A stretch of 25,188 bases of DNA, taken from the IMG/VR virus record IMGVR_UViG_2547132281_000006, positions 1 through 25,188 of that record; one strand, given 5' to 3'. Below are positions 1 to 21,018 of the stretch, one piece after another; within the stretch, counting starts at the first letter, position 1; every line of letters starts with the position of its first letter. The position numbers and the translations under genes were made by a program. Under the pieces are notes generated by a model. It was given only the letters and a program-made list of their open reading frames with translations, did not search any database and had not been told where the DNA came from. This DNA is from a virus. Lineage: Duplodnaviria > Heunggongvirae > Uroviricota > Caudoviricetes.

Positions 1-267
1 TTACTCTGCAGGTGAAGTCGGCCACTCAATATCAGGTGCAGTTGATGTATCAACACGATTCAACAATACCCGATATTTATTCCATGCCTCCAGCAACGAT
101 CTTTCTTCCTCCGTTGCGATTTCCAGATCTACAGCATCCTGCAGTGGCGCAATATACTCACTGAATTCCTGGATGTAGAACTGTGTGGTGACGGTCTTCC
201 AGCCATTCGGCTCCTGCTGTATCGAAGCATACCAGGCTATTTCAATATCGCTATGCTGCGGCAGCAT
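1..267 (-). pseudogene. Tail-fibre assembly (Tfa) C-terminal remnant
   Basis: 88-aa ORF; last ~50 aa ([17 protein letters not shown]...[14 protein letters not shown]) closely match the C-terminus of the intact tfa at 1047-1631; first ~35 aa unrelated. DNA 19-163 is ~85% identical to 1061-1205. Confidence 0.6.
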
Positions 268-323
268 TTAACCCCTTGTAATTCATCGCCATAATTGATT
301 TAATTCACAAATAAAACTATAAC

Positions 324-992
324 ATGGTGAAATCAATGAAAAAAAACACAGATGATGGGGCTAAAATTTACACACCACTTACCCTAAAGCTTTATGACTG
401 GTGGGTTTTGGGAGTATCAAATCGGCTTGCATGGGGATGTCCTACAAAGGAACACCTTCTTCCACACTTTCTGGAACATGTAGGTAACAACCATCTGGAT
501 ATTGGTGTTGGAACTGGGTTTTACCTTACTCACGTACCTGAGAGTAGTCTGATATCTTTAATGGATTTGAACGAAGCTAGCCTGAACGCGGCATCTACAA
601 GGGCTGGGGAATCAAAAATTAAACATAAAATTAGCCATGATGTTTTTGAACCTTATCCCGCGGCGTTACATGGTCAATTTGATTCCATTTCCATGTTTTA
701 CCTTCTTCACTGCCTGCCTGGAAATATATCTACAAAAAGCTGTGTAATACGCAATGCGGCGCAGGCCTTAACTGACGATGGAACTCTATACGGAGCCACA
801 ATTCTTGGCGATGGAGTTGTGCACAATAGCTTCGGTCAAAAACTGATGCGCATTTACAATCAGAAAGGCATCTTTTCAAACACAAAAGATTCCGAAGAAG
901 GCTTAACACATATACTCTCAGAGCATTTCGAGAATGTTAAAACCAAGGTTCAAGGTACTGTAGTAATGTTTTCCGCTTCAGGGAAAAAATAG
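324..992 (+). CDS. Class I SAM-dependent methyltransferase (YbcY-like), plus-strand moron between tfa copies
   Basis: 222-aa ORF with glycine-rich SAM-binding motif LDIGVGTGFY near residue 58; alternative start ATG at 336 preceded by GGTGA. Strand opposite to the late operon. Confidence 0.7.
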   Translation: MVKSMKKNTDDGAKIYTPLTLKLYDWWVLGVSNRLAWGCPTKEHLLPHFLEHVGNNHLDIGVGTGFYLTHVPESSLISLMDLNEASLNAASTRAGESKIKHKISHDVFEPYPAALHGQFDSISMFYLLHCLPGNISTKSCVIRNAAQALTDDGTLYGATILGDGVVHNSFGQKLMRIYNQKGIFSNTKDSEEGLTHILSEHFENVKTKVQGTVVMFSASGKK

Positions 993-999
993 CATCCAA

Positions 1000-1032
1000 C
1001 CGCAGCACGTTCTTGCTTAAGACGTGCTGCGG
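1000..1032. terminator. Stable stem-loop between convergent MTase and tfa genes (candidate bidirectional terminator)
   Basis: Perfect 11-bp stem CCGCAGCACGT / ACGTGCTGCGG with 11-nt loop; T-run follows on the minus strand (complement of GGGAAAAAATAG). Confidence 0.4.
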
Positions 1033-1046
1033 CATAATCCCAATGA

Positions 1047-1631
1047 TTACTCCCTGACAGGGTTCGTAGGCCACTCAATATCAGGTGCAGTTGATGTATC
1101 AACACGGTTCAGCAACACCCGATACTTTTTCCAGGCTTCCAGCAATGAGGTTTCTTCCTCCGTTGCAATTTCCAGATCTGCAGCATCCTGAAGCGGCGCA
1201 ATATGCTCACTGGCTACCTGCATCAGGTTGTTTTTTGTTTCTTCCGCCTCCCGGATCCGGAACAGTTTTTCTGCTTCTGCATCTTTCACCCAGGTTGTGC
1301 CGTTCCACTTCTGAAACTCCCCTTCCGGCGATAACCAGGTAACATTTTCCGGTAATAAGCCGAGTTCAGAAATAAATAACGCGTCGCCGGAAGCTACGTC
1401 ATAAACCGTTTTACCCCGATGATCTTCAACGAGATGCCACGATGCCTCATCACTGTTGAAAACAGCCACAAAGCCAGCCGGAATATCTGGCGGTGCAATA
1501 TCGGTACTGTTTGCTGGCAGACCTGTATGAGGCGGAATATATGCGTCACCTTCACCAATAAATTCATTAGTTCCGGCCAGCAGATTATAAATTTTTATGG
1601 TCCGTGCTTGTTCACTCATTCTGAATGCCAT
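1047..1631 (-). CDS. tfa: Tail fibre assembly protein (lambda Tfa family)
   Basis: 194-aa ORF with typical Tfa N-terminus ([36 protein letters not shown]) and conserved C-terminal block. Confidence 0.85.
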
Positions 1632-1641
1632 TATGCAAGCC

Positions 1642-1881
1642 TCACAATATAGTTAAATGCGATGTTTTTGACGGTGTTTTCCGCGTTACCAGCAGCGTTA
1701 ACGGTGATGGTGTGTCCATGTGAACCAATCGCACCGGCGTTTTTCCGGTAATTTTGTCCAGCATCACCTCTTCGGTGTGGAAATTCACCGTACGGCGGAA
1801 AAACAGCTCCAGAAACAGCGCACGGAATTTAACTTTTTGTTCGGTATAACCGAGTAACTGGCGGGTCGTAAACAATCCCAT
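1642..1881 (-). pseudogene. Major capsid protein (lambda E-like), N-terminal ~55 codons only; deletion junction
   Basis: [41 protein letters not shown] resembles the recalled lambda E N-terminus; similarity stops after ~55 aa and the ORF ends 11 bp before tfa. Confidence 0.7.
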
Positions 1882-1938
1882 AAATCAGTTCCTTTCATTA
1901 AGAAATCAGTCAGGCCAACGCGGTGGCCTGATAACGTG

Positions 1939-2322: not shown

Positions 2323-3828
2323 TCATGGCATGGCCATGAGCATTTTCACGTCCGCATCACCGTCTTCTGACGCCTGTGACACGCCCCCCTGGACCGCAGC
2401 CGGTGAATGGTTCGCCATGAAATGTTCAAACAGGGCGGTTGTGGATGCAGAGACCGGTTCTGCCTTACCTGATCCCGCAGCCAGCACAGCCCGGGCGCTC
2501 TCCACGGTCATTCCCGGGCAGGCAGCCAGCTGTTCAGCCTGCGCCTCAGCCCCTTTTGCCTCATCCAGGGCCATGATCTGATCACGGAGTGATGGTCCGG
2601 CATTCGCCTGCGGTGAAGCAGCCAGGATCGGGCGGGCTTTTTCCACCGTCATCTCCGGCATCGCCGCCAGCGTTACTGCCAGTTGTTCACGACCGTTCGC
2701 TTCTTCACACGCCATAATGCGATCGGCTTCACTCTGCGCGGATGCCACCGGCTGCTGCGGTGCCGCCGCGGCCAGAATCGCCCGGGCCTGTTCAACGCTC
2801 ATGCCCTGTTGCCCTGCCAGCATCGTGGCAAGCTGTTCACGTCCTTTCGCTTCCTGGCATGTCAGGATCCCCATCACTCGCTGGTTCTCCTGCACGGCGG
2901 CTTCCGTTGCAGTTAATTGCGGCATAGTGCCTCCTCTGACATTACTGTTCAGCGCCGTGGCCATCACACTGATGGCATCCGACGCATTGATTAATTCATC
3001 CGCCAGCCCGGCCTCAATGCCGGACTGACCTTCAAAAACGGCGGCCTCTGTTCCCGTGACCGCATCCACAGACAACCCGGTATACATCGCCACTTTTTCG
3101 GCAAACATCCGGTGCGCCGCATCAATCCGCTGCTGCATATCCTGGCGAACCTCTGCCGGCAACGCTTCAAACTGATTGCCATCCACCTTGTGCGCCCCGG
3201 CATAAATCAGCGTGATATCCACACCGGCCTGCGCCAGATGACCGGCATAGCTGACATGGCTCATCATCACGCCAATGGAGCCGATACGGGATGTCTGGGT
3301 AACCAGCCGTCGGGAGCAGGCCGACGCCAGCAGCATGGCTGCAGAACAGGCCGTGTCATTGCACAGTGCCCAGACCGGCTTCTGCTGACGGAGGCGGTAA
3401 ATCATGTCAGCGCAGTCAAACGCGCCGGCGGCCTGCCCGCCCGGACTGTCAATGTCCAGCAGTATGCCCCGCACCTGGCTATCTGCCATTGCCTGCTGAA
3501 GACAGGCGACAATGCCGTCATAGCCAGTCATTCCGGAAAATGGCCGCATCCCCCCCAGCCGGTGCACCAGCGTGCCGCTCACCGGCAGTACCGCAATACC
3601 GTTCACCACCCGGTAAACACGGGCCGGTCGTTTACCTCCGGCCATGTACTCGTCCGTTTCAGCCAGCATTCCGGGAGCATCAAGCTGTACCTGCTGTTGT
3701 GGTACCGAAAGACTTGCTGCCCCCATCTCGCGCCCGAGCGCGCAAAAGAAAACCCGCGCATAGGCGGGCTCCAGAAGCAGCGGTTCATTGAATGCTGCGG
3801 CAATAATGTGTGAAAGATTACGTCTCAC
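2323..3828 (-). CDS. C: Prohead protease / scaffold (lambda C/Nu3-like, S49 peptidase family) with tandem C-terminal repeats
   Basis: 501 aa; N-terminal S49/ClpP-like region (ILLDIDSPGG...); C-terminal part has three ~33-aa tandem repeats (EAKGREQLA...GMSVEQARAILAA). Confidence 0.85.
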   Translation of the reverse strand: MRRNLSHIIAAAFNEPLLLEPAYARVFFCALGREMGAASLSVPQQQVQLDAPGMLAETDEYMAGGKRPARVYRVVNGIAVLPVSGTLVHRLGGMRPFSGMTGYDGIVACLQQAMADSQVRGILLDIDSPGGQAAGAFDCADMIYRLRQQKPVWALCNDTACSAAMLLASACSRRLVTQTSRIGSIGVMMSHVSYAGHLAQAGVDITLIYAGAHKVDGNQFEALPAEVRQDMQQRIDAAHRMFAEKVAMYTGLSVDAVTGTEAAVFEGQSGIEAGLADELINASDAISVMATALNSNVRGGTMPQLTATEAAVQENQRVMGILTCQEAKGREQLATMLAGQQGMSVEQARAILAAAAPQQPVASAQSEADRIMACEEANGREQLAVTLAAMPEMTVEKARPILAASPQANAGPSLRDQIMALDEAKGAEAQAEQLAACPGMTVESARAVLAAGSGKAEPVSASTTALFEHFMANHSPAAVQGGVSQASEDGDADVKMLMAMP

Positions 3829-14180: not shown

Positions 14181-14214
14181 GGAGTTTACTCACATCTGAC
14201 AAAATCAATATAAA

Positions 14215-14236
14215 CAGCCCCTCCGGAGAGGGGCTG
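14215..14236 (-). terminator. GC-rich hairpin downstream of the tRNA cluster
   Basis: 9-bp stem CAGCCCCTC / GAGGGGCTG with 4-nt loop; on the minus strand followed by TTTATATTGATTTTG. Confidence 0.4.
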
Positions 14237-14471
14237 GAGAGTGGCGCTATGTGCCATTGCATGGTGCCGGGTGCCTCCCGGTGAATTCAGTACCAGCACC
14301 TGAATCCGCGATTATCCCATATACCTACTCGCTGATTGCCCCTCCGCACAGGGGGATTCACCATGCCAGTTTCTTTTAACAAACTCCCCGCAAACCAGAC
14401 AACAGTCAACCGCCTAAATTGTGAGACATTTAAAAAAAAGGCCCACAAAAGCGAGCCAGGGAAAATAAGTG

Positions 14472-14548
14472 TGGCGCGTTGTACTGGATTCGAACCAGTG
14501 ACCGATTGCTTAGAAGGCAATTGCTCTGTCCGGCTGAGCTAACAACGC
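14472..14548 (-). tRNA. tRNA-Arg (anticodon TCT)
   Basis: Reverse complement folds as a cloverleaf: acceptor GCGTTGT/ACAACGC, D-arm GCTC..GAGC, anticodon loop CTTCTAA, T-arm ACTGG-TTCGAAT-CCAGT, encoded CCA. Confidence 0.85.
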
Positions 14549-14561
14549 ATGATGCAGATAA

Positions 14562-14638
14562 TGGACCGCCATCGGGGACTTGAACCCCGCGCAACCAGCT
14601 TCGAAGGCTGGCGCTCTTTCCTGATGAGCTAATGGCGG
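14562..14638 (-). tRNA. tRNA-Arg (anticodon TCG)
   Basis: Acceptor CCGCCAT/ATGGCGG, D-arm GCTC..GAGC, anticodon stem CCAGC/GCTGG with loop CTTCGAA, T-arm CGGGG-TTCAAGT-CCCCG, encoded CCA. Confidence 0.8.
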
Positions 14639-14645
14639 TATGTGA

Positions 14646-14721
14646 TGGTGGCCCTTGCTGGATTTGAACCAGCGACCTGGCGATTATGAGTCGCTCGCTC
14701 TCACCACTGAGCTAAAGGGCC
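14646..14721 (-). tRNA. tRNA with CAT anticodon (Ile2/lysidine type, ileX/ileZ-like, or Met)
   Basis: Sequence GGCCCTTTAGCTCAGTGGTGAGAGCGAGCGACTCATAATCGCCAGGTCGCTGGTTCAAATCCAGCAAGGGCCACCA closely resembles recalled E. coli ileX. Confidence 0.8.
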
Positions 14722-17587: not shown

Positions 17588-17831
17588 CAGTCACCTCTTT
17601 TAACAGAGCCTGCATTTTTTCAACAGCATCAGGGGTGTCTTTATCCAGCCAACGGAAAATTTTCTGGGTATTACGGGCCAGGGCTTCCGGATGGCTGTCG
17701 TCATACAGTTCCGGGAACGTCATTCCCAGCTCGAAATACGCTTTGGTAATTTTCGCAGCCGGTACTTTTTCGCCGTCCGGATGCGCCCAGGCATTCATTG
17801 CCATGCGGATGTGTTCATGCTTGATTTTCAT
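17394..17831 (-). CDS. Hypothetical protein downstream of the Cro-like gene (position analogous to ydaT of Rac); 3' end overlaps rusA
   Basis: 145-aa ORF; first ~100 aa look protein-like; last ~45 aa overlap rusA in another frame (possible lost stop or frameshift). Confidence 0.4.
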   Translation of the reverse strand: MKIKHEHIRMAMNAWAHPDGEKVPAAKITKAYFELGMTFPELYDDSHPEALARNTQKIFRWLDKDTPDAVEKMQALLKEVTDAHRFGFTLPADGEHLLATPWQHIFCIKSRGALSPGSGAYCSPAAAEIKPVRKAGDKGDCRATG

Positions 17832-18090
17832 GAATCACCCCCGCCTCTGGTTGTGTGTTAGCCTGATACTCGACAGGTAAGCCGTCGGTTGGGTTGGGAT
17901 AAGTACTGCCATCAATCTCGTGCGGAGTTACTATCCAGCCTGTTGCTTCGCACCAGCGTAAAATTTTTTTCCCCGTAAGTTTCGCCCGTCCGGTAATGAC
18001 ATGGCTTACCATCCCTTGGGTTACCCCAACAATTTCAGCAAAATGCTTCTGAGTTATACCGGAATGATGCAAATATTCTCCAAGATTCAT
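17815..18090 (-). CDS. Cro/YdaS/DicC-like HTH regulator, divergent from the repressor
   Basis: 91 aa; helix-turn-helix region GITQKHFAEIVGVTQGMVSHVITG; divergent from the repressor gene across an operator-containing intergenic region. Confidence 0.65.
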   Translation of the reverse strand: MNLGEYLHHSGITQKHFAEIVGVTQGMVSHVITGRAKLTGKKILRWCEATGWIVTPHEIDGSTYPNPTDGLPVEYQANTQPEAGVIHENQA

Positions 18091-18122: not shown

Positions 18123-18162
18123 AATAGCATTGTTATTTTTAAAAGTAAATAGCATCACTATT
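18123..18162. promoter_or_regulatory. Operator pair OR-like: two 15-bp palindromic sites (AATAG-N5-CTATT type), 25 bp apart
   Basis: AATAGCATTGTTATT (18123-18137) and AATAGCATCACTATT (18148-18162) in the divergent cro-like/repressor intergenic region; also palindrome TGATGTCATCA at 18104-18114. Confidence 0.5.
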
Positions 18163-18197
18163 TCAAAGAGATTAATAATCTTATTAGAATTGAAGGT

Positions 18198-18698
18198 ATG
18201 AAAAGAAAATCCCTGTCAGAGATCGACCTGCAAGCCGCCCAGAGACTGAAAGAAATCTGGACGGCGAAAAAAAATCAACTAGGGTTAACCCAAGAGCGTG
18301 CGGCAGAAATTCTGGGATTTTCGACACAGGGAGCTGTAAGCCATTATCTAAATGGTCAGACACCTTTAAATCTTGAGGCTGTTATCAAGTTCGCAGGGTT
18401 GCTGCAAGTTCCTCCCGAGTCAATCAGACCAGATATGGCCGAGTTGTTACAAATTGTAAGGATGTATCCCCAAGAATCTGGGGAGGACAATGTTGTCACT
18501 ATATCTGCAGATATGGAACAATCGGAAAACGAACTTCCGTTTAATATAGACCCCATGGAGCGGGATTTGCTCCAGACGTTCAGGGCTTTCCCCAAAGAAG
18601 ATAAAGAGAAAATGCTTAAGGAAATGAAGGAGAAAAAAGAATCAATTGAAGAAATCGTTGCGCGATGGCTAGCTGCGCAAAAGGGTCGTCGCGCCTAA
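18198..18698 (+). CDS. DicA-like prophage repressor (HTH, no LexA-type peptidase domain)
   Basis: 166 aa; HTH LGLTQERAAEILGFSTQGAVSHYLNG; C-terminal region resembles recalled DicA; no S24 peptidase motifs. Confidence 0.75.
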   Translation: MKRKSLSEIDLQAAQRLKEIWTAKKNQLGLTQERAAEILGFSTQGAVSHYLNGQTPLNLEAVIKFAGLLQVPPESIRPDMAELLQIVRMYPQESGEDNVVTISADMEQSENELPFNIDPMERDLLQTFRAFPKEDKEKMLKEMKEKKESIEEIVARWLAAQKGRRA

Positions 18699-18715
18699 TC
18701 TGAGGAGGTAAAAAC

Positions 18716-18907
18716 ATGAGTACAGCCCTTTCCCCGATAATTTCTGAATTTGAAACAGTCGAACAAGAAAACAGCTATAACGAATGGTTGCGAACCAAAG
18801 TGGCAGCAAGCCTCTCAGATCCCCGTCCTGCAATTCCACATGACGAAGTAATGGCTGAAATGGAAAACCTTATTGCTCAATTAGCTGCAACGAACAGGAG
18901 TGAGTAA
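18716..18907 (+). CDS. Type II antitoxin (ParD-like) paired with the downstream ParE/RelE toxin
   Basis: 63 aa; GAGGAGG SD; stop overlaps the toxin start (TAATG); acidic C-terminus. Confidence 0.65.
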   Translation: MSTALSPIISEFETVEQENSYNEWLRTKVAASLSDPRPAIPHDEVMAEMENLIAQLAATNRSE

Positions 18908-19197
18908 TGCTGCCCATTTTATGGCTACCTTCTGCACGTGATGATTTACGTCAGATCGTAGCCTATATTGCTAAGGAAAACCCTCCCGCTGCACGTAGAC
19001 TAAAAATACGCATTGAAACATCAGTTTTGTCACTTACTGAACACCCTTATCTGTACCCACCGAGCGAAAGAGTTCCAAGTCTTCGTGAGATAGTGACTCA
19101 TCCTAACTACATAATACTTTACCGAGTAACAGCATCTAACATCGAGATCGTAAATGTAGTTCACTCACGAAGACAGTATCCAAACAAAACCTGTTAA
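18907..19197 (+). CDS. ParE/RelE-family type II toxin
   Basis: 96 aa; LPSARDDL...YIILYRV...IEIVNVVHSRRQY pattern typical of ParE/RelE toxins. Confidence 0.8.
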   Translation: MLPILWLPSARDDLRQIVAYIAKENPPAARRLKIRIETSVLSLTEHPYLYPPSERVPSLREIVTHPNYIILYRVTASNIEIVNVVHSRRQYPNKTC

Positions 19198-19210
19198 TCC
19201 TTCCTGTCAA

Positions 19211-19235
19211 CAACCACCTTCGGGTGGTTTTTTTC
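19211..19235 (+). terminator. Intrinsic terminator ending the repressor/toxin-antitoxin operon
   Basis: AACCACC-TTCG-GGTGGTT followed by TTTTTTT. Confidence 0.7.
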
Positions 19236-19245
19236 TTGCCACGAT

Positions 19246-19285
19246 AATAGCACTGCTATTTACATAATTAAATAGTAGTGGTATT
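19246..19285. promoter_or_regulatory. Second operator pair with the same motif and spacing (OL-like), upstream of the ydfA-dicF-dicB operon
   Basis: AATAGCACTGCTATT (19246-19260, perfect palindrome) and AATAGTAGTGGTATT (19271-19285), again 25 bp apart. Confidence 0.5.
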
Positions 19286-19466
19286 GTTCATTCATCAACC
19301 CACCCCGCCCCACAGAACGCCAGGCAATACTTCGAGTTACCCGGCAGTGGTCAGGGGTTAAGTAGCCAGCCCGAGGCGTAAGAACATGACGGCAGGGTTC
19401 AACTTTAATAACTATGCAGCAGGTTTTTGTTCCGCTACCCCGGCGTTAAGGGGAAATGAGGTCAGC

Positions 19467-19619
19467 ATGGATACTATCGAGCTTGGCAACAACGAATCTC
19501 TGGTATGCGGCGTGTTTCCCAACCAGGACGGCACGTTTACCGCGATGACATATACCAGAAGCAAAACGTTTAAAACTGAAGCTGGCGCGCGTCGCTGGTT
19601 AACCAGAAACACTGACTGA
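19467..19619 (+). CDS. YdfA-like small protein
   Basis: 50 aa from internal ATG 19467 (GAGG SD); MDTIELGNNESLVCGVFPNQDGTFTAMTYTRSKTFKTE resembles recalled Qin YdfA. Confidence 0.6.
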   Translation: MDTIELGNNESLVCGVFPNQDGTFTAMTYTRSKTFKTEAGARRWLTRNTD

Positions 19620-19630
19620 TGAGGTTGACG

Positions 19631-20032
19631 ATGGAATTTAAAGATTTACCAGTACCATTCCAGGAAATGGCATCGAATGTGGTTCGCTCTCAACTGGCGA
19701 CTCTTGACCTGAGTACTGTAGAAAAGGAAACCATCGATACTATATCCGGTAACGTGCGTCGTGCCTTTATAGGTCTGTATGAAGAGAAGCGCCTATTCGG
19801 CGGACAGAATTCGCCTGAAAACAAGAATCAAGCAAATGATGAGAAGCTGAAACACATTATCGCCTTACTTTTGGAAGACGCAAAACGTCTACAGCAACTG
19901 GAACCAAATGCAGGCACAGAGGCCCGCATTTGGATTGCCATGAAATCACTCAAATGTGAAAGCAGTGATTATTTCAAAACAACAATTAAAACTACTCAAC
20001 TTTCGGGAGAGCTACTGAAGAAATTGCCATAA
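19631..20032 (+). CDS. Hypothetical ~133-aa protein (unknown family)
   Basis: ORF with GAGG SD before ATG 19631 (alternative ATG 19619 overlaps the ydfA-like stop as TGATG); helical-looking; 3' end overlaps the convergent minus-strand ORF by 41 bp. Confidence 0.5.
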   Translation: MEFKDLPVPFQEMASNVVRSQLATLDLSTVEKETIDTISGNVRRAFIGLYEEKRLFGGQNSPENKNQANDEKLKHIIALLLEDAKRLQQLEPNAGTEARIWIAMKSLKCESSDYFKTTIKTTQLSGELLKKLP

Positions 20033-20273
20033 GAGCATGGTCTTTCTCTTGTTCTGCAAGATGAGCATTAATACCTGGTATGGTTTTTTCAAATTTATCT
20101 ATCTGTTGAATAACAACTTCGCGGTATACGTTTGTTTTTGTACCACCAAGCGCAGCCGTTAATGCAGAAAGCATATTTAGTATCATATCAGTGCGATATG
20201 AAAGAATCCTGATAGCTTCATCTTGTTTTTCAATAATAGATTGCAGGGCCTCAATTTGCTTTTTATCCATTTC
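19992..20273 (-). CDS. Hypothetical 93-aa coiled-coil-like protein, antisense within the early-left operon
   Basis: ATG at 20273 preceded by strong SD GGAGGG; AT-rich; sequence MDKKQIEALQSIIEKQDEAIRILSYRTDMILNMLSALTAAL. Confidence 0.45.
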   Translation of the reverse strand, partial: EMDKKQIEALQSIIEKQDEAIRILSYRTDMILNMLSALTAALGGTKTNVYREVVIQQIDKFEKTIPGINAHLAEQEKDHALMAISSVALPKVE

Positions 20274-20602
20274 ACCCTCCTGAGGGTTGGTAATTAAGGA
20301 GTTCTCCACGGGTCAGGTGGAGTGCGTGCGCCGGACACGGGTGAACATCCGGCACTGACAGTTTACTGAAAGGATATGTCCCTGAAAAGTCAGGGCATAA
20401 AGCGAAAGCGCACGGCGAAATTGGTCTCTCTGTACGGTGTCGTTAAATTTAGTTCGACCGTGCGCTTCCGGTTGTGGCACTCCGCGAAATGGCGCGGCGG
20501 TAAGTATGGCGGGGTTATTCCTTCCCCCGTTGAGGACACCGGGTTGTCAGGTTGACCATACGCTTAAGTGACAACTCCGCTGCAACGCCCTCTGTTATCA
20601 AT

Positions 20603-20655
20603 TTTCTGGTGACTTTTGGCGGTATCAGTTTTACTCCGTGACTGCTCTGCCGCCC
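20603..20655 (+). ncRNA. dicF: DicF small RNA (ftsZ-targeting sRNA of Qin-type prophages)
   Basis: TTTCTGGTGACTTTTGGCGGTATCAGTTTTACTCCGTGACTGCTCTGCCGCCC followed by TTTTT matches recalled K-12 DicF with ~2 substitutions; lies immediately upstream of the dicB-like gene. Confidence 0.8.
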
Positions 20656-20829: not shown

Positions 20830-21018
20830 ATGGAAACGTTATTACCAAACGTTAATACGTCTGAAGGTTGTTTTGATATTGGTGTTCTGCTCAGTAACCG
20901 GGAGTTTACGGAAGATGCCATTAAGATGAGAAAATATGAACCTTATCTTCTCAATGATAATTCCATACTTTCCAGAATTGCCCTTCTTGAACTTGGTATT
21001 ATCGGAGAACAGCAGTGA
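20830..21018 (+). CDS. dicB: DicB-like cell-division inhibitor
   Basis: 62 aa from ATG 20830 (GAGGA SD); METLLPNVNTSEGCFDIGV...FTEDAI matches the recalled K-12 DicB N-terminal half. Confidence 0.75.
   Translation: METLLPNVNTSEGCFDIGVLLSNREFTEDAIKMRKYEPYLLNDNSILSRIALLELGIIGEQQ

What the first reader, a model, noticed from the sequence alone, without database searches (positions are those of the whole stretch)
18198..19235. ParD/ParE-type toxin-antitoxin pair transcriptionally fused to the prophage repressor
Seen in sequence: the repressor stop (18698) is followed 17 nt later by a 63-aa ORF with a GAGGAGG SD, whose stop overlaps the start of a 96-aa ParE/RelE-like ORF (TAATG), and the unit ends in a textbook intrinsic terminator (19211-19235). 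No terminator separates repressor and toxin-antitoxin genes, so the pair should be expressed whenever the lysogen expresses the repressor. Inference: it occupies the slot next to the repressor where lambda carries rexAB, so it could serve prophage maintenance or abortive-infection exclusion. The repressor lacks a LexA-like cleavage domain.
Basis: partly seen in the sequence, partly recalled or inferred. Interest (0 to 1): 0.65.

Follow-up and report, generated by a model that had tools for sequence, protein, structure and literature searches.

The report
Known PaaR-PaaA-ParE prophage toxin-antitoxin operon
The three genes are a real toxin-antitoxin pair sitting directly behind the repressor of a decayed lambda-like prophage in E. 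coli, but this three-gene arrangement (paaR-paaA-parE) was described in E. coli O157:H7 in 2010 and 2021, so this is a new allele of a known system.

Summary
A 166-aa HTH repressor (18198-18698) is followed after 17 nt by a 63-aa ORF with a GAGGAGG ribosome-binding site. That ORF's stop overlaps (TAATG) the start of a 96-aa ParE toxin gene, and a hairpin plus U-run terminator ends the unit.

The toxin is ParE-family: Pfam E=6.6e-18, and 65% identical to the solved ParE2 of O157:H7. The antitoxin is not ParD. It belongs to the PaaA2 family (Pfam PF21217, E=1e-21), which has no DNA-binding domain.

The trio is therefore a member of the published tripartite paaR-paaA-parE system (Hallez 2010, cited in PMC8630535; Jurenas 2021, PMC8630535). 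In that system the regulator is the prophage's CI analogue, YdaS/YdaT are the Cro/CII analogues, and the module is addictive.

What differs here is the repressor allele. Its N-terminal domain resembles the lambda CI N-terminal domain, with its own operators (AATAGCAnTGCTATT) at OR and OL. Only its C-terminal ~50 residues are shared with PaaR1/PaaR2/DicA. The homology block shared between immunity types runs from the repressor's 3' third through paaA and parE.

The window is E. coli TW14425. An 8.2-kb deletion in its prophage has cut ydaT and removed the replication genes. Verdict: real, ordinary, a new member of a known kind.

The parts
17602..17831 (-). Truncated ydaT (CII analogue). Only the first 76 of 141 codons remain, then the reading frame runs into rusA-proximal DNA.
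   Evidence: The retained part is 99-100% identical to YdaT of CP-933P and O104:H4 over residues 1-76. The deletion junction was mapped by blastn at window 17601/17602. RefSeq annotates it as incomplete.
17821..17838 (.). YdaT operator-like inverted repeat TTGATTTTCATGAATCAc at the ydaS end / ydaT start. This is the position of the PRE analogue.
   Evidence: It has 1 mismatch to the published YdaT site TTGATTN6AATCAA (PMC9986795). The count alone is at chance level; the position is the expected one.
17815..18090 (-). ydaS, the Cro analogue (91 aa, HTH_3), divergent from the repressor.
   Evidence: Pfam HTH_3 E=9.4e-6. phrog_35 transcriptional repressor E=3.6e-20. Same position as ydaS in CP-933P (PMC8630535).
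18121..18149 (-). Candidate PR for ydaS-ydaT. On the minus strand: -35 TTTACT (18149-18144), 17-nt spacer, -10 TATTAA (18126-18121).
   Evidence: Read from the sequence. It has the same GCTATTTAC -35 context as the PL candidate. It was not reported by the consensus scan because the -10 ends in A. Inferred.
18123..18162 (.). OR operators: two 15-bp palindromes, AATAGCATTGTTATT (18123-18137) and AATAGCATCACTATT (18148-18162), 25 bp apart. A further palindrome TAATAAtcTTATTA at 18173-18186 may be a divergent third site.
   Evidence: The window holds 4 matches in all, against 1.14 expected. All four lie in the two regulatory regions, as two pairs with identical 25-bp spacing.
18162..18190 (+). Candidate PRM: TTCAAA, 17-nt spacer, TAGAAT. 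The -10 ends 7 nt before the ATG at 18198, so the transcript would be leaderless or nearly so.
   Evidence: Promoter scan. There is no usable Shine-Dalgarno: GAAGG lies 1 nt from the ATG. paaR2 and lambda cI are leaderless (PMC8630535). Inferred here.
18198..18698 (+). Prophage repressor (CI analogue, PaaR/DicA-type), 166 aa. It has a lambda-CI-like HTH N-terminal domain and a PaaR/DicA-type C-terminal ~50 residues, with no S24 peptidase domain.
   Evidence: Pfam HTH_3 E=9.9e-10. Lambda CI N-terminal domain structures E~1e-9. DicA model hit on residues 107-162. An HMM built from the PaaR C-terminal region, whose seed alignment included this window's own sequence, gives E=4.6e-35. Alignments.
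18702..18708 (+). Shine-Dalgarno GAGGAGG for paaA, inside the 17-nt intergenic gap.
18716..18907 (+). paaA antitoxin, 63 aa, PaaA2 family, with no DNA-binding domain.
   Evidence: Pfam PF21217 E=1e-21. NCBIfam NF050103 E=1e-26. PDB 3zbe PaaA2 E=2e-22. 84% identical to the other O157:H7 paralogue and 62% to PaaA2.
18907..19197 (+). parE toxin, 96 aa. Its start overlaps the paaA stop (TAATG).
   Evidence: Pfam PF05016 E=6.6e-18. PDB 5cw7 ParE2 E=5e-36. 85% identical to the other O157:H7 paralogue and 65% to ParE2.
19212..19238 (+). Intrinsic terminator of the repressor-paaA-parE unit: 7-bp stem, UUCG loop, U-run.
   Evidence: -10.4 kcal/mol.
19246..19287 (+). OL operators (AATAGCACTGCTATT at 19246-19260; AATAGTAGTGGTATT at 19271-19285) overlapping a candidate PL (TTTACA, 17-nt spacer, TATTGT, 19259-19287). 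PL points towards ydfA, DicF, dicB, the exonuclease gene, xis and int.
   Evidence: This matches the PL/OL arrangement reported for CP-933P (PMC8630535).

Best explanation
This is a tripartite paaR-paaA-parE toxin-antitoxin module built into the immunity region of a lambdoid (Qin/Rac/CP-933P-like) prophage of E. coli.

The 166-aa HTH protein is the prophage's CI analogue. It is predicted to bind 15-bp palindromes (AATAGCAnTGCTATT) at OR, between itself and the divergent cro analogue ydaS, and at OL/PL just beyond the terminator. It is predicted to be made from a PRM-like promoter as a leaderless or near-leaderless mRNA.

paaA and parE follow on the same transcript. The gap to paaA is 17 nt, and paaA and parE are translationally coupled. 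The antitoxin and toxin are therefore made whenever the lysogenic promoter is on.

PaaA has no DNA-binding domain, so transcriptional control is delegated to the phage repressor. PaaA neutralises ParE by direct binding.

By analogy with PaaA2-ParE2, PaaA is protease-labile. Losing or replacing this DNA segment would then free ParE, which damages the nucleoid and induces SOS, and would kill the segregant. The module thus acts as an addiction cassette that keeps the immunity region in place, even in a decaying prophage such as this one.

What is shown here: gene identities, architecture, operator repeats, purifying selection, and the mosaic boundaries. What is inferred from the O157:H7 homologues: co-transcription, leaderless start, PaaA lability, ParE toxicity, and addiction.
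For: Synteny matches the characterised locus. L007 from O157:H7 SS17 encodes PaaR2 (MQKKE...), PaaA2 and ParE2 with divergent ydaS-ydaT. The same five-gene layout appears in four further E. coli loci and in phage Evi.

YdaT residues 1-76 are 99% identical to the YdaT of CP-933P that was studied experimentally.

Operator palindromes occur only at OR and OL, with the same 25-bp spacing, and they overlap promoter-like hexamers.

The unit is bounded by one terminator, and nothing separates the three genes.

dN/dS is 0.07-0.22 for paaA and about 0.03 for parE, the latter from the only comparison in which dS was not saturated.

This repressor type occurs in 72 of 5426 complete E. coli genomes. About 70 records hold the TA pair at 90% identity or more, consistent with tight linkage.

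Published experiments on the homologue (PMC8630535; PMC4803016 summarising Hallez 2010) show: an operon; PaaR2 binding OR and PL; a leaderless paaR2 transcript; PaaA2 degraded by ClpAP/ClpXP; ParE2 inducing SOS; and the locus stabilising an unstable mini-F.
Against: Nothing was measured for this allele.

The repressor is only 28-41% identical overall to PaaR-type regulators, and its N-terminal domain is of a different type. Operator assignment and promoter positions are therefore sequence inference. The pattern count on its own is modest: 4 matches against 1.14 expected, and 4 of 100 shuffles reach 4.

In the homologue no ParE2 activation was seen in either transcriptional state, and the toxin's molecular target is still unknown (PMC8630535).

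ydaT is truncated here, so the YdaT/PRE arm of the published circuit is probably dead.

Outside E. coli the paaA-parE pair occurs without any PaaR-type gene. The pair can therefore be expressed without a phage repressor.
Confidence: 0.8

Rival explanations
1. The toxin-antitoxin pair works as a Rex-like exclusion or abortive-infection system. A superinfecting phage that shuts off host or prophage transcription, or speeds up PaaA turnover, frees ParE and kills the infected cell before the phage yields progeny.
For: The pair sits exactly in the lambda rexAB slot, between the repressor gene and OL/PL, and is expressed from the lysogenic promoter. Labile-antitoxin type II systems are increasingly reported as phage defences (general literature, e.g. 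PMC10440598). A phage genome record (Evi) also carries the module.
Against: None of the three proteins hits a PADLOC defence model. No such phenotype was found in the papers read for PaaA-ParE. Those papers document addiction, not defence (PMC8630535).
Confidence: 0.15
2. paaA-parE is an autonomous two-gene cassette with its own promoter inside the 3' part of the repressor gene. Its position behind the repressor is only an insertion site, and its expression does not depend on PRM.
For: In 36 non-E. coli species loci the pair occurs without a PaaR-type gene and next to unrelated genes (Rep3, OmpA, ThiE, TIR). A promoter-like site lies at 18493-18522 (TTGTCA, 18-nt spacer, AACAAT with TG). In CP-933P the TA reporter was appreciably expressed in both switch states (PMC8630535).
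Against: Promoter-like sites are at chance frequency: 4 found against 2.9 +/- 2.0 expected. The gap to the repressor stop is 17 nt and contains only a Shine-Dalgarno. The block conserved between immunity types includes the repressor's 3' third. The homologous genes were shown to form one operon regulated by PaaR (Hallez 2010, via PMC8630535 and PMC4803016).
Confidence: 0.15
3. The module is an inactive relic in a dead prophage and has no current function.
For: The prophage is clearly decaying. It has an 8.2-kb deletion that removes the replication genes and the ydaT 3' end, and its capsid and tail genes are truncated.
Against: All three ORFs are intact and 100% identical across many unrelated strains. 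dN/dS is well below 1. The Shine-Dalgarno, the translational coupling and the terminator are all preserved.
Confidence: 0.05

Closest known systems
paaR2-paaA2-parE2 of cryptic prophage CP-933P / Sp12, E. coli O157:H7 (Hallez et al. 2010; Jurenas et al. 2021, PMC8630535; PaaA2 and ParE2 structures 3zbe, 5cw7, 5cze, 5czf)
   Same: - Same gene order and spacing, with divergent ydaS-ydaT.
- The retained part of YdaT is 99% identical.
- A repressor without an S24 domain.
- The PaaR C-terminal ~50 residues are conserved.
- PaaA lacks a DNA-binding domain, and the paaA stop overlaps the parE start.
- Terminator followed by OL/PL, then the dicB region downstream.
   Different: - The repressor is 166 aa rather than 123 aa, and only 28% identical.
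- Its N-terminal domain is a different type: it hits lambda CI N-terminal domain structures at E~1e-9 but did not retrieve the solved PaaR2 N-terminal domains (7nkv, 8c3k, 8c3l) at E<=0.001.
- The operator sequence differs: AATAGCAnTGCTATT here, against the GTTTAGTAA-type repeats reported for CP-933P.
- PaaA is 62% and ParE 65% identical. The divergence is concentrated in the PaaA C-terminus and the ParE N-terminal helices.
- ydaT is truncated here.
Second O157:H7 paralogue (locus L003 in strain WS4202; presumably paaR1-paaA1-parE1 of CP-933M)
   Same: It is the closest TA relative: PaaA 84% and ParE 85% identical. The layout and the downstream ydfA/dicB region are the same. The repressor C-terminal domain is conserved.
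   Different: The repressor N-terminal domain and the operators differ (37% overall identity). Equating L003 with 'paa1' is by elimination, since O157:H7 records hold two places. It was not checked against the original paper.
Lambda cI-rexA-rexB immunity operon
   Same: A repressor transcribed from PRM (leaderless in lambda), followed on the same transcript by accessory genes expressed in the lysogen. The operon lies between OR and OL/PL. The repressor N-terminal domain here is detectably homologous to the lambda CI N-terminal domain.
   Different: The window's paaA and parE products match TA families (PaaA2, ParE), not RexA/RexB; RexA and RexB themselves were not compared here. The repressor lacks the S24 autocleavage domain, so RecA-mediated induction is not expected.
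DicA-DicC immunity region of the Qin prophage (E. coli K-12)
   Same: The repressor's C-terminal region matches the DicA model (NF007257, residues 107-162). The downstream genes are of the Qin type: ydfA (DUF1391), DicF sRNA, dicB, ydfD (DUF1482).
   Different: The DicA hit scores 31 bits against a curated cut-off of 101, so this protein is not DicA itself. From my own recollection, not checked here, Qin has no TA pair between dicA and ydfA.
Classical parDE (RK2, Caulobacter, Vibrio cholerae parDE2)
   Same: The toxin fold family is the same (Pfam ParE_toxin). The antitoxin gene comes first and the two genes overlap.
   Different: ParD is a ribbon-helix-helix DNA-binding autorepressor. The antitoxin here has no such domain and matches only the PaaA2 family. 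Regulation is outsourced to a third protein.

Membership tests
Tripartite paaR-paaA-parE toxin-antitoxin system | Toxin homologous to ParE1/ParE2 (RelE/ParE superfamily, ParE branch) | tested here: met
   Pfam PF05016 65.5 bits against a cut-off of 23. ParE2 structure 5cw7 E=5e-36 over residues 1-92. 65% identical to ParE2 and 85% to the other O157:H7 paralogue.
Tripartite paaR-paaA-parE toxin-antitoxin system | Small PaaA-family antitoxin without a DNA-binding domain, encoded immediately upstream of the toxin | tested here: met
   PF21217 PaaA2 77.1 bits against a cut-off of 27, and the only Pfam hit. 3zbe E=2e-22. 63 aa. TAATG overlap with parE.
Tripartite paaR-paaA-parE toxin-antitoxin system | Third gene: a co-oriented HTH transcriptional regulator (PaaR) directly upstream of paaA | tested here: met
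   An HTH_3 protein ends 17 nt before paaA. Its C-terminal ~50 residues are homologous to PaaR1-like and PaaR2; the C-terminal-domain HMM, whose seed alignment included this sequence, gives E=4.6e-35. Its N-terminal domain is not the PaaR2 type: 28% overall identity, and no hit to the solved PaaR2 N-terminal domains at E<=0.001.
Tripartite paaR-paaA-parE toxin-antitoxin system | Location in a lambdoid immunity region with divergent ydaS (Cro analogue) and ydaT (CII analogue) | tested here: met
   ydaS is intact. ydaT is present but cut after residue 76 by a deletion.
Tripartite paaR-paaA-parE toxin-antitoxin system | The three genes are transcribed as one operon repressed by PaaR | not testable with these tools
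   The sequence is consistent: 17-nt gap, no terminator, and a single terminator after parE. No expression data are available.
Tripartite paaR-paaA-parE toxin-antitoxin system | ParE is toxic, is neutralised by its cognate PaaA, and the module causes post-segregational killing | not testable with these tools
   Shown only for the O157:H7 homologues (PMC8630535, PMC4803016). Purifying selection here is indirect support.
ParD antitoxin (ribbon-helix-helix) of classical parDE | N-terminal RHH DNA-binding domain / match to ParD families | tested here: not met
   No ParD or RHH family appears among the Pfam or NCBIfam hits at E<=0.01. The only hits are PaaA2 and NF050103.
LexA/lambda-CI type self-cleaving repressors | C-terminal S24 peptidase domain | tested here: not met
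   No Peptidase_S24 hit. Similarity to lambda CI is confined to the N-terminal domain: the domain-only entries align to query residues 2-90, and the best alignment extends weakly to residue 115. The remaining residues match the short PaaR/DicA C-terminal region.
DicA (NCBIfam NF007257) | Score above the curated cut-off for the whole protein | tested here: not met
   31.2 bits against a cut-off of 101. Only the C-terminal 56 residues align.
Known anti-phage defence systems (PADLOC-DB v2) | Match of any component to a defence-system model | tested here: not met
   No hits for any of the three proteins at E<=0.01.

The most novel reading that the evidence does not exclude
The conserved block made of the repressor's C-terminal domain plus paaA and parE may behave as a portable cassette. 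It has been recombined onto at least three or four unrelated immunity specificities, each with its own N-terminal domain and its own OR and OL. Besides addiction, it might give lysogens a Rex-like abortive-infection defence triggered by superinfecting phages. That would make it a functional replacement for rexAB whose expression is hard-wired to the lysogenic promoter.
Probability: 0.12. Interest if true: 0.5.

Novelty: new member of a known kind. Interest (0 to 1): 0.2.

Why it matters
Very little is new. The locus is another allele of a tripartite toxin-antitoxin system that has been studied genetically, biochemically and structurally in E. coli O157:H7. RefSeq already annotates its parts, as a RelB-family antitoxin and a RelE/ParE toxin.

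There are two modest points of value.
- The same paaA-parE cassette, together with the repressor's C-terminal domain, is attached to several different immunity specificities. Here that specificity is a lambda-CI-like N-terminal domain with its own operators. This fits the published idea that the module survives, and perhaps polices, recombination in immunity regions.
- The module is fully intact in a prophage that has lost its replication genes, half of ydaT, and most head and tail genes. That is what an addiction cassette predicts.

PHROGs still lists both proteins as 'unknown function', so annotation transfer would be useful.

Tried and rejected
- ParD identity for the antitoxin: rejected. 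There is no RHH or ParD hit, and the PaaA2 family matches instead.
- Defence-system membership: no PADLOC hits.
- DNA-level relatives among sequenced phages: none for the TA pair by megablast. tblastn with PaaA found only Escherichia phage Evi, which carries the PaaR2-type locus.
- An internal terminator or promoter separating the repressor from the TA pair: only chance-level consensus hits, at 18523-18539 and 18493-18522.
- A third OR operator of the same 15-bp type: not found at up to 3 mismatches. Only a differently spaced palindrome, at 18173-18186.
- Structured RNAs in the unit: Rfam found none inside 18198-19235.
- A PaaR-like regulator upstream of paaA-parE in other phyla: absent. The neighbouring genes are unrelated.
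- dS for parE and for the repressor's C-terminal domain is saturated in most comparisons, so only some dN/dS values could be given.
- Structure prediction was not run. The toxin and antitoxin are 62-65% identical to solved structures, and alignments containing non-window sequences are not accepted by that tool.
- The large protein-database searches were not used because they would not change the verdict.
Full report
**Observation.**
- The repressor ORF runs 18198-18698.
- A 17-nt gap follows. It carries GAGGAGG at 18702-18708, 7 nt before the ATG at 18716.
- The 63-aa ORF ends at 18907.
- Its TAA overlaps the ATG of a 96-aa ORF (18907-19197) in a TAATG. An AGGAG lies 6 nt upstream of that ATG.
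- A 7-bp GC-rich hairpin with a UUCG loop and a U-run follows at 19212-19238. It folds at -10.4 kcal/mol, z = -2.07.
- Nothing in the gap could terminate transcription. The other promoter- and terminator-like hits in the region are at the frequency expected from shuffled sequence.

**What the genes are.**
- The 96-aa protein matches Pfam ParE_toxin (E=6.6e-18). It aligns end to end with the crystallised ParE2 of E. coli O157:H7 (5cw7, E=5e-36).
- The 63-aa protein matches only Pfam PF21217 'PaaA2' (E=1e-21), NCBIfam NF050103 and the PaaA2 structures (3zbe, E=2e-22). It gives no ParD or ribbon-helix-helix hit, so 'ParD/ParE-type' is wrong for the antitoxin.
- The 166-aa protein has an HTH_3 domain at residues 26-74 and no S24 peptidase domain. 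Its N-terminal ~90 residues resemble the lambda CI N-terminal domain (E~1e-9). [quoted passage not shown]
- On the other strand lie an HTH Cro-like gene (ydaS, 17815-18090) and a YdaT-family gene.

**Source and context.** The window is E. coli TW14425, NZ_CP127265.1, bases 1-25167; window coordinate = record coordinate + 21. It covers a lambdoid prophage integrated next to potC. RefSeq already annotates the three genes as an HTH protein, a RelB-family antitoxin and a RelE/ParE toxin.

The 1.5 kb around the finding is 100% identical in O104:H4 and many other strains. Relative to the O104:H4 prophage, this one has lost 8,242 bp, with the junction at window 17601/17602. That deletion cuts ydaT after codon 76 of 141 and removes the replication genes. 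The capsid and tail region is also fragmentary. YdaT lacking its C-terminal helix (residues 1-96) is monomeric and does not bind DNA (PMC9986795), so the CII-analogue arm is very probably dead here.

**Comparison with what is known.** The architecture is that of the tripartite paaR-paaA-parE system of O157:H7.

I fetched the O157:H7 SS17 locus whose regulator starts MQKKE, the N-terminus determined for PaaR2 (PMC8630535), and whose antitoxin matches the PaaA2 structure sequence wherever the two can be compared through the window alignments (L007). Against it, the window's antitoxin is 62% identical, the toxin 65% and the repressor 28%. Against the second O157:H7 paralogue (L003, presumably paa1), the values are 84%, 85% and 37%.

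All six E. coli loci examined, and phage Evi, show the same order: ydaT, ydaS, then the divergent repressor, paaA and parE, followed by ydfA and the dicB region.

The published work (PMC8630535; PMC4803016 summarising Hallez 2010) shows the following for the homologue:
- The three genes form an operon controlled by PaaR2.
- PaaR2 is the CI analogue. It binds OR and a PL/OL region, and is translated from a leaderless mRNA.
- YdaS and YdaT act like Cro and CII, and the switch is bistable.
- PaaA2 is degraded by ClpAP and ClpXP.
- ParE2 induces SOS, although its precise target is still unknown.
- The locus stabilises an unstable plasmid by post-segregational killing.
- PaaR2 lacks the autocleavage motif and does not respond to mitomycin C.

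**What is particular to this allele.** A DNA alignment of four immunity types shows where they share homology.
- Shared: the 3' third of the repressor gene, paaA and parE (about 60-84% nucleotide identity), and again the DNA downstream of PL.
- Type-specific: ydaS, the OR region, the repressor's N-terminal coding part, and the OL/PL region.

In this window the type-specific regulatory DNA carries four copies of a 15-bp palindrome, AATAGCAnTGCTATT. Two are at OR (18123, 18148) and two at OL (19246, 19271). Each pair is spaced 25 bp apart, and there are no other copies in 25 kb (1.14 expected).

These sites overlap three candidate promoters:
- PR (minus strand): TTTACT, 17-nt spacer, TATTAA.
- PL: TTTACA, 17-nt spacer, TATTGT.
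- PRM: TTCAAA, 17-nt spacer, TAGAAT, abutting an operator. Its -10 ends 7 nt before the repressor ATG and there is no usable Shine-Dalgarno, so a leaderless or near-leaderless transcript is plausible.

These assignments are sequence inference. They reproduce the lambda and CP-933P logic with a different operator sequence.

**Distribution.**
- This repressor type is in 72 of 5426 complete E. coli genomes.
- paaA-parE relatives are in 842 genomes. About 70 records hold the pair at 90% identity or more, which fits tight linkage of this TA allele with this repressor type.
- Both TA genes are under purifying selection (dN/dS 0.03-0.22 where dS was measurable).
- Outside E. coli, 36 species-representative genomes carry PaaA homologues, most of them with an adjacent ParE gene. 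They include Bartonella, Acetobacteraceae, Sphingomonadales and some Betaproteobacteria.
- None of these has a gene with the PaaR C-terminal domain. The upstream neighbours are unrelated: a Rep3 initiator, OmpA, ThiE, a TIR protein.
- Coupling to a phage repressor is therefore a feature of the enterobacterial lambdoid loci, not of the PaaA-ParE pair as such.

**Mechanism and rivals.**
- Best explanation (confidence 0.8): an addiction-type TA cassette co-transcribed with, and transcriptionally governed by, the prophage's CI analogue. It stabilises the immunity region. Its intactness in a prophage that has lost replication and morphogenesis genes fits that reading.
- Rex-like abortive infection is not excluded. 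Only position supports it, and there are no PADLOC hits.
- An autonomous internal promoter is possible as a minor contributor. It rests on a chance-level consensus hit.
- A dead relic is unlikely, given the conservation and selection.

**Verdict.** The system is a new allele, with a new immunity type, of an already well-characterised kind. Interest is low.

Noticed in passing
window 17601-17602 (junction); ydaT remnant 17602-17831: An 8,242-bp deletion relative to the otherwise near-identical O104:H4 prophage (L001 3560-11801). It fuses the first 76 codons of ydaT to DNA just upstream of rusA. It removes the O/P-like replication genes, hokD and several small ORFs.
   Followed up: yes
window 1-1900: The morphogenesis end of the prophage is decayed. 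RefSeq annotates a major-capsid fragment abutting a tail-protein fragment, plus partial tail-fibre-assembly and DinI genes. Rfam finds an IS009 RNA at 1090-1288.
   Followed up: partly
window 20604-20655 and about 20830-21018: A DicF antisense sRNA (Rfam 75.8 bits) and dicB lie in the PL-side operon downstream of the TA unit, as in the Qin prophage. ydfA (DUF1391) is at 19386-19619.
   Followed up: partly
window 14206-14721: STnc100 sRNA (132 bits) and three tRNA genes (Arg, Arg, Ile) lie downstream of the Q antiterminator gene on the minus strand, on the late-gene side (towards lower window coordinates). Further along that side are a SASA/NanS-type esterase gene and iraM. This resembles the late-region layout of Stx-type lambdoid phages (from memory), but no stx gene is annotated here.
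   Followed up: no
window 17821-17838: The inverted repeat TTGATTTTCATGAATCAc has one mismatch to the published YdaT operator. It spans the ydaS end and the ydaT start and is conserved in the aligned E. coli loci. It is probably the PRE-analogue site, left without its activator here.
   Followed up: partly
L008-L043 (GTDB species genomes): PaaA homologues, most with an adjacent ParE gene, are common in Bartonella, Acetobacteraceae, Sphingomonadales and some Betaproteobacteria. They have no PaaR-type regulator, and their upstream neighbours are unrelated (Rep3 initiator, OmpA, ThiE, TIR-domain protein). How an antitoxin with no DNA-binding domain is regulated there is unclear.
   Followed up: partly
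L044 (Escherichia phage Evi, LR597642.1) about 3195-3472: This deposited phage genome carries a PaaR2-type repressor and PaaA2. It also has an intact ParE2-like ORF (HMM E=1.6e-54) that is not annotated in the record.
   Followed up: partly
window 18716-19197: PHROGs v4 classifies both proteins (phrog_3936 and phrog_2455) as 'unknown function'. NCBIfam names the PaaA-type antitoxin 'RelB family'. Both labels lag behind or differ from the experimental literature.
   Followed up: yes
window 19619-20032 (+) and 19992-20309 (-): Two ORFs of 137 aa and 105 aa, between ydfA and DicF, have no Pfam hit, and the 137-aa ORF also has no NCBIfam hit. RefSeq annotates them as hypothetical proteins.
   Followed up: no
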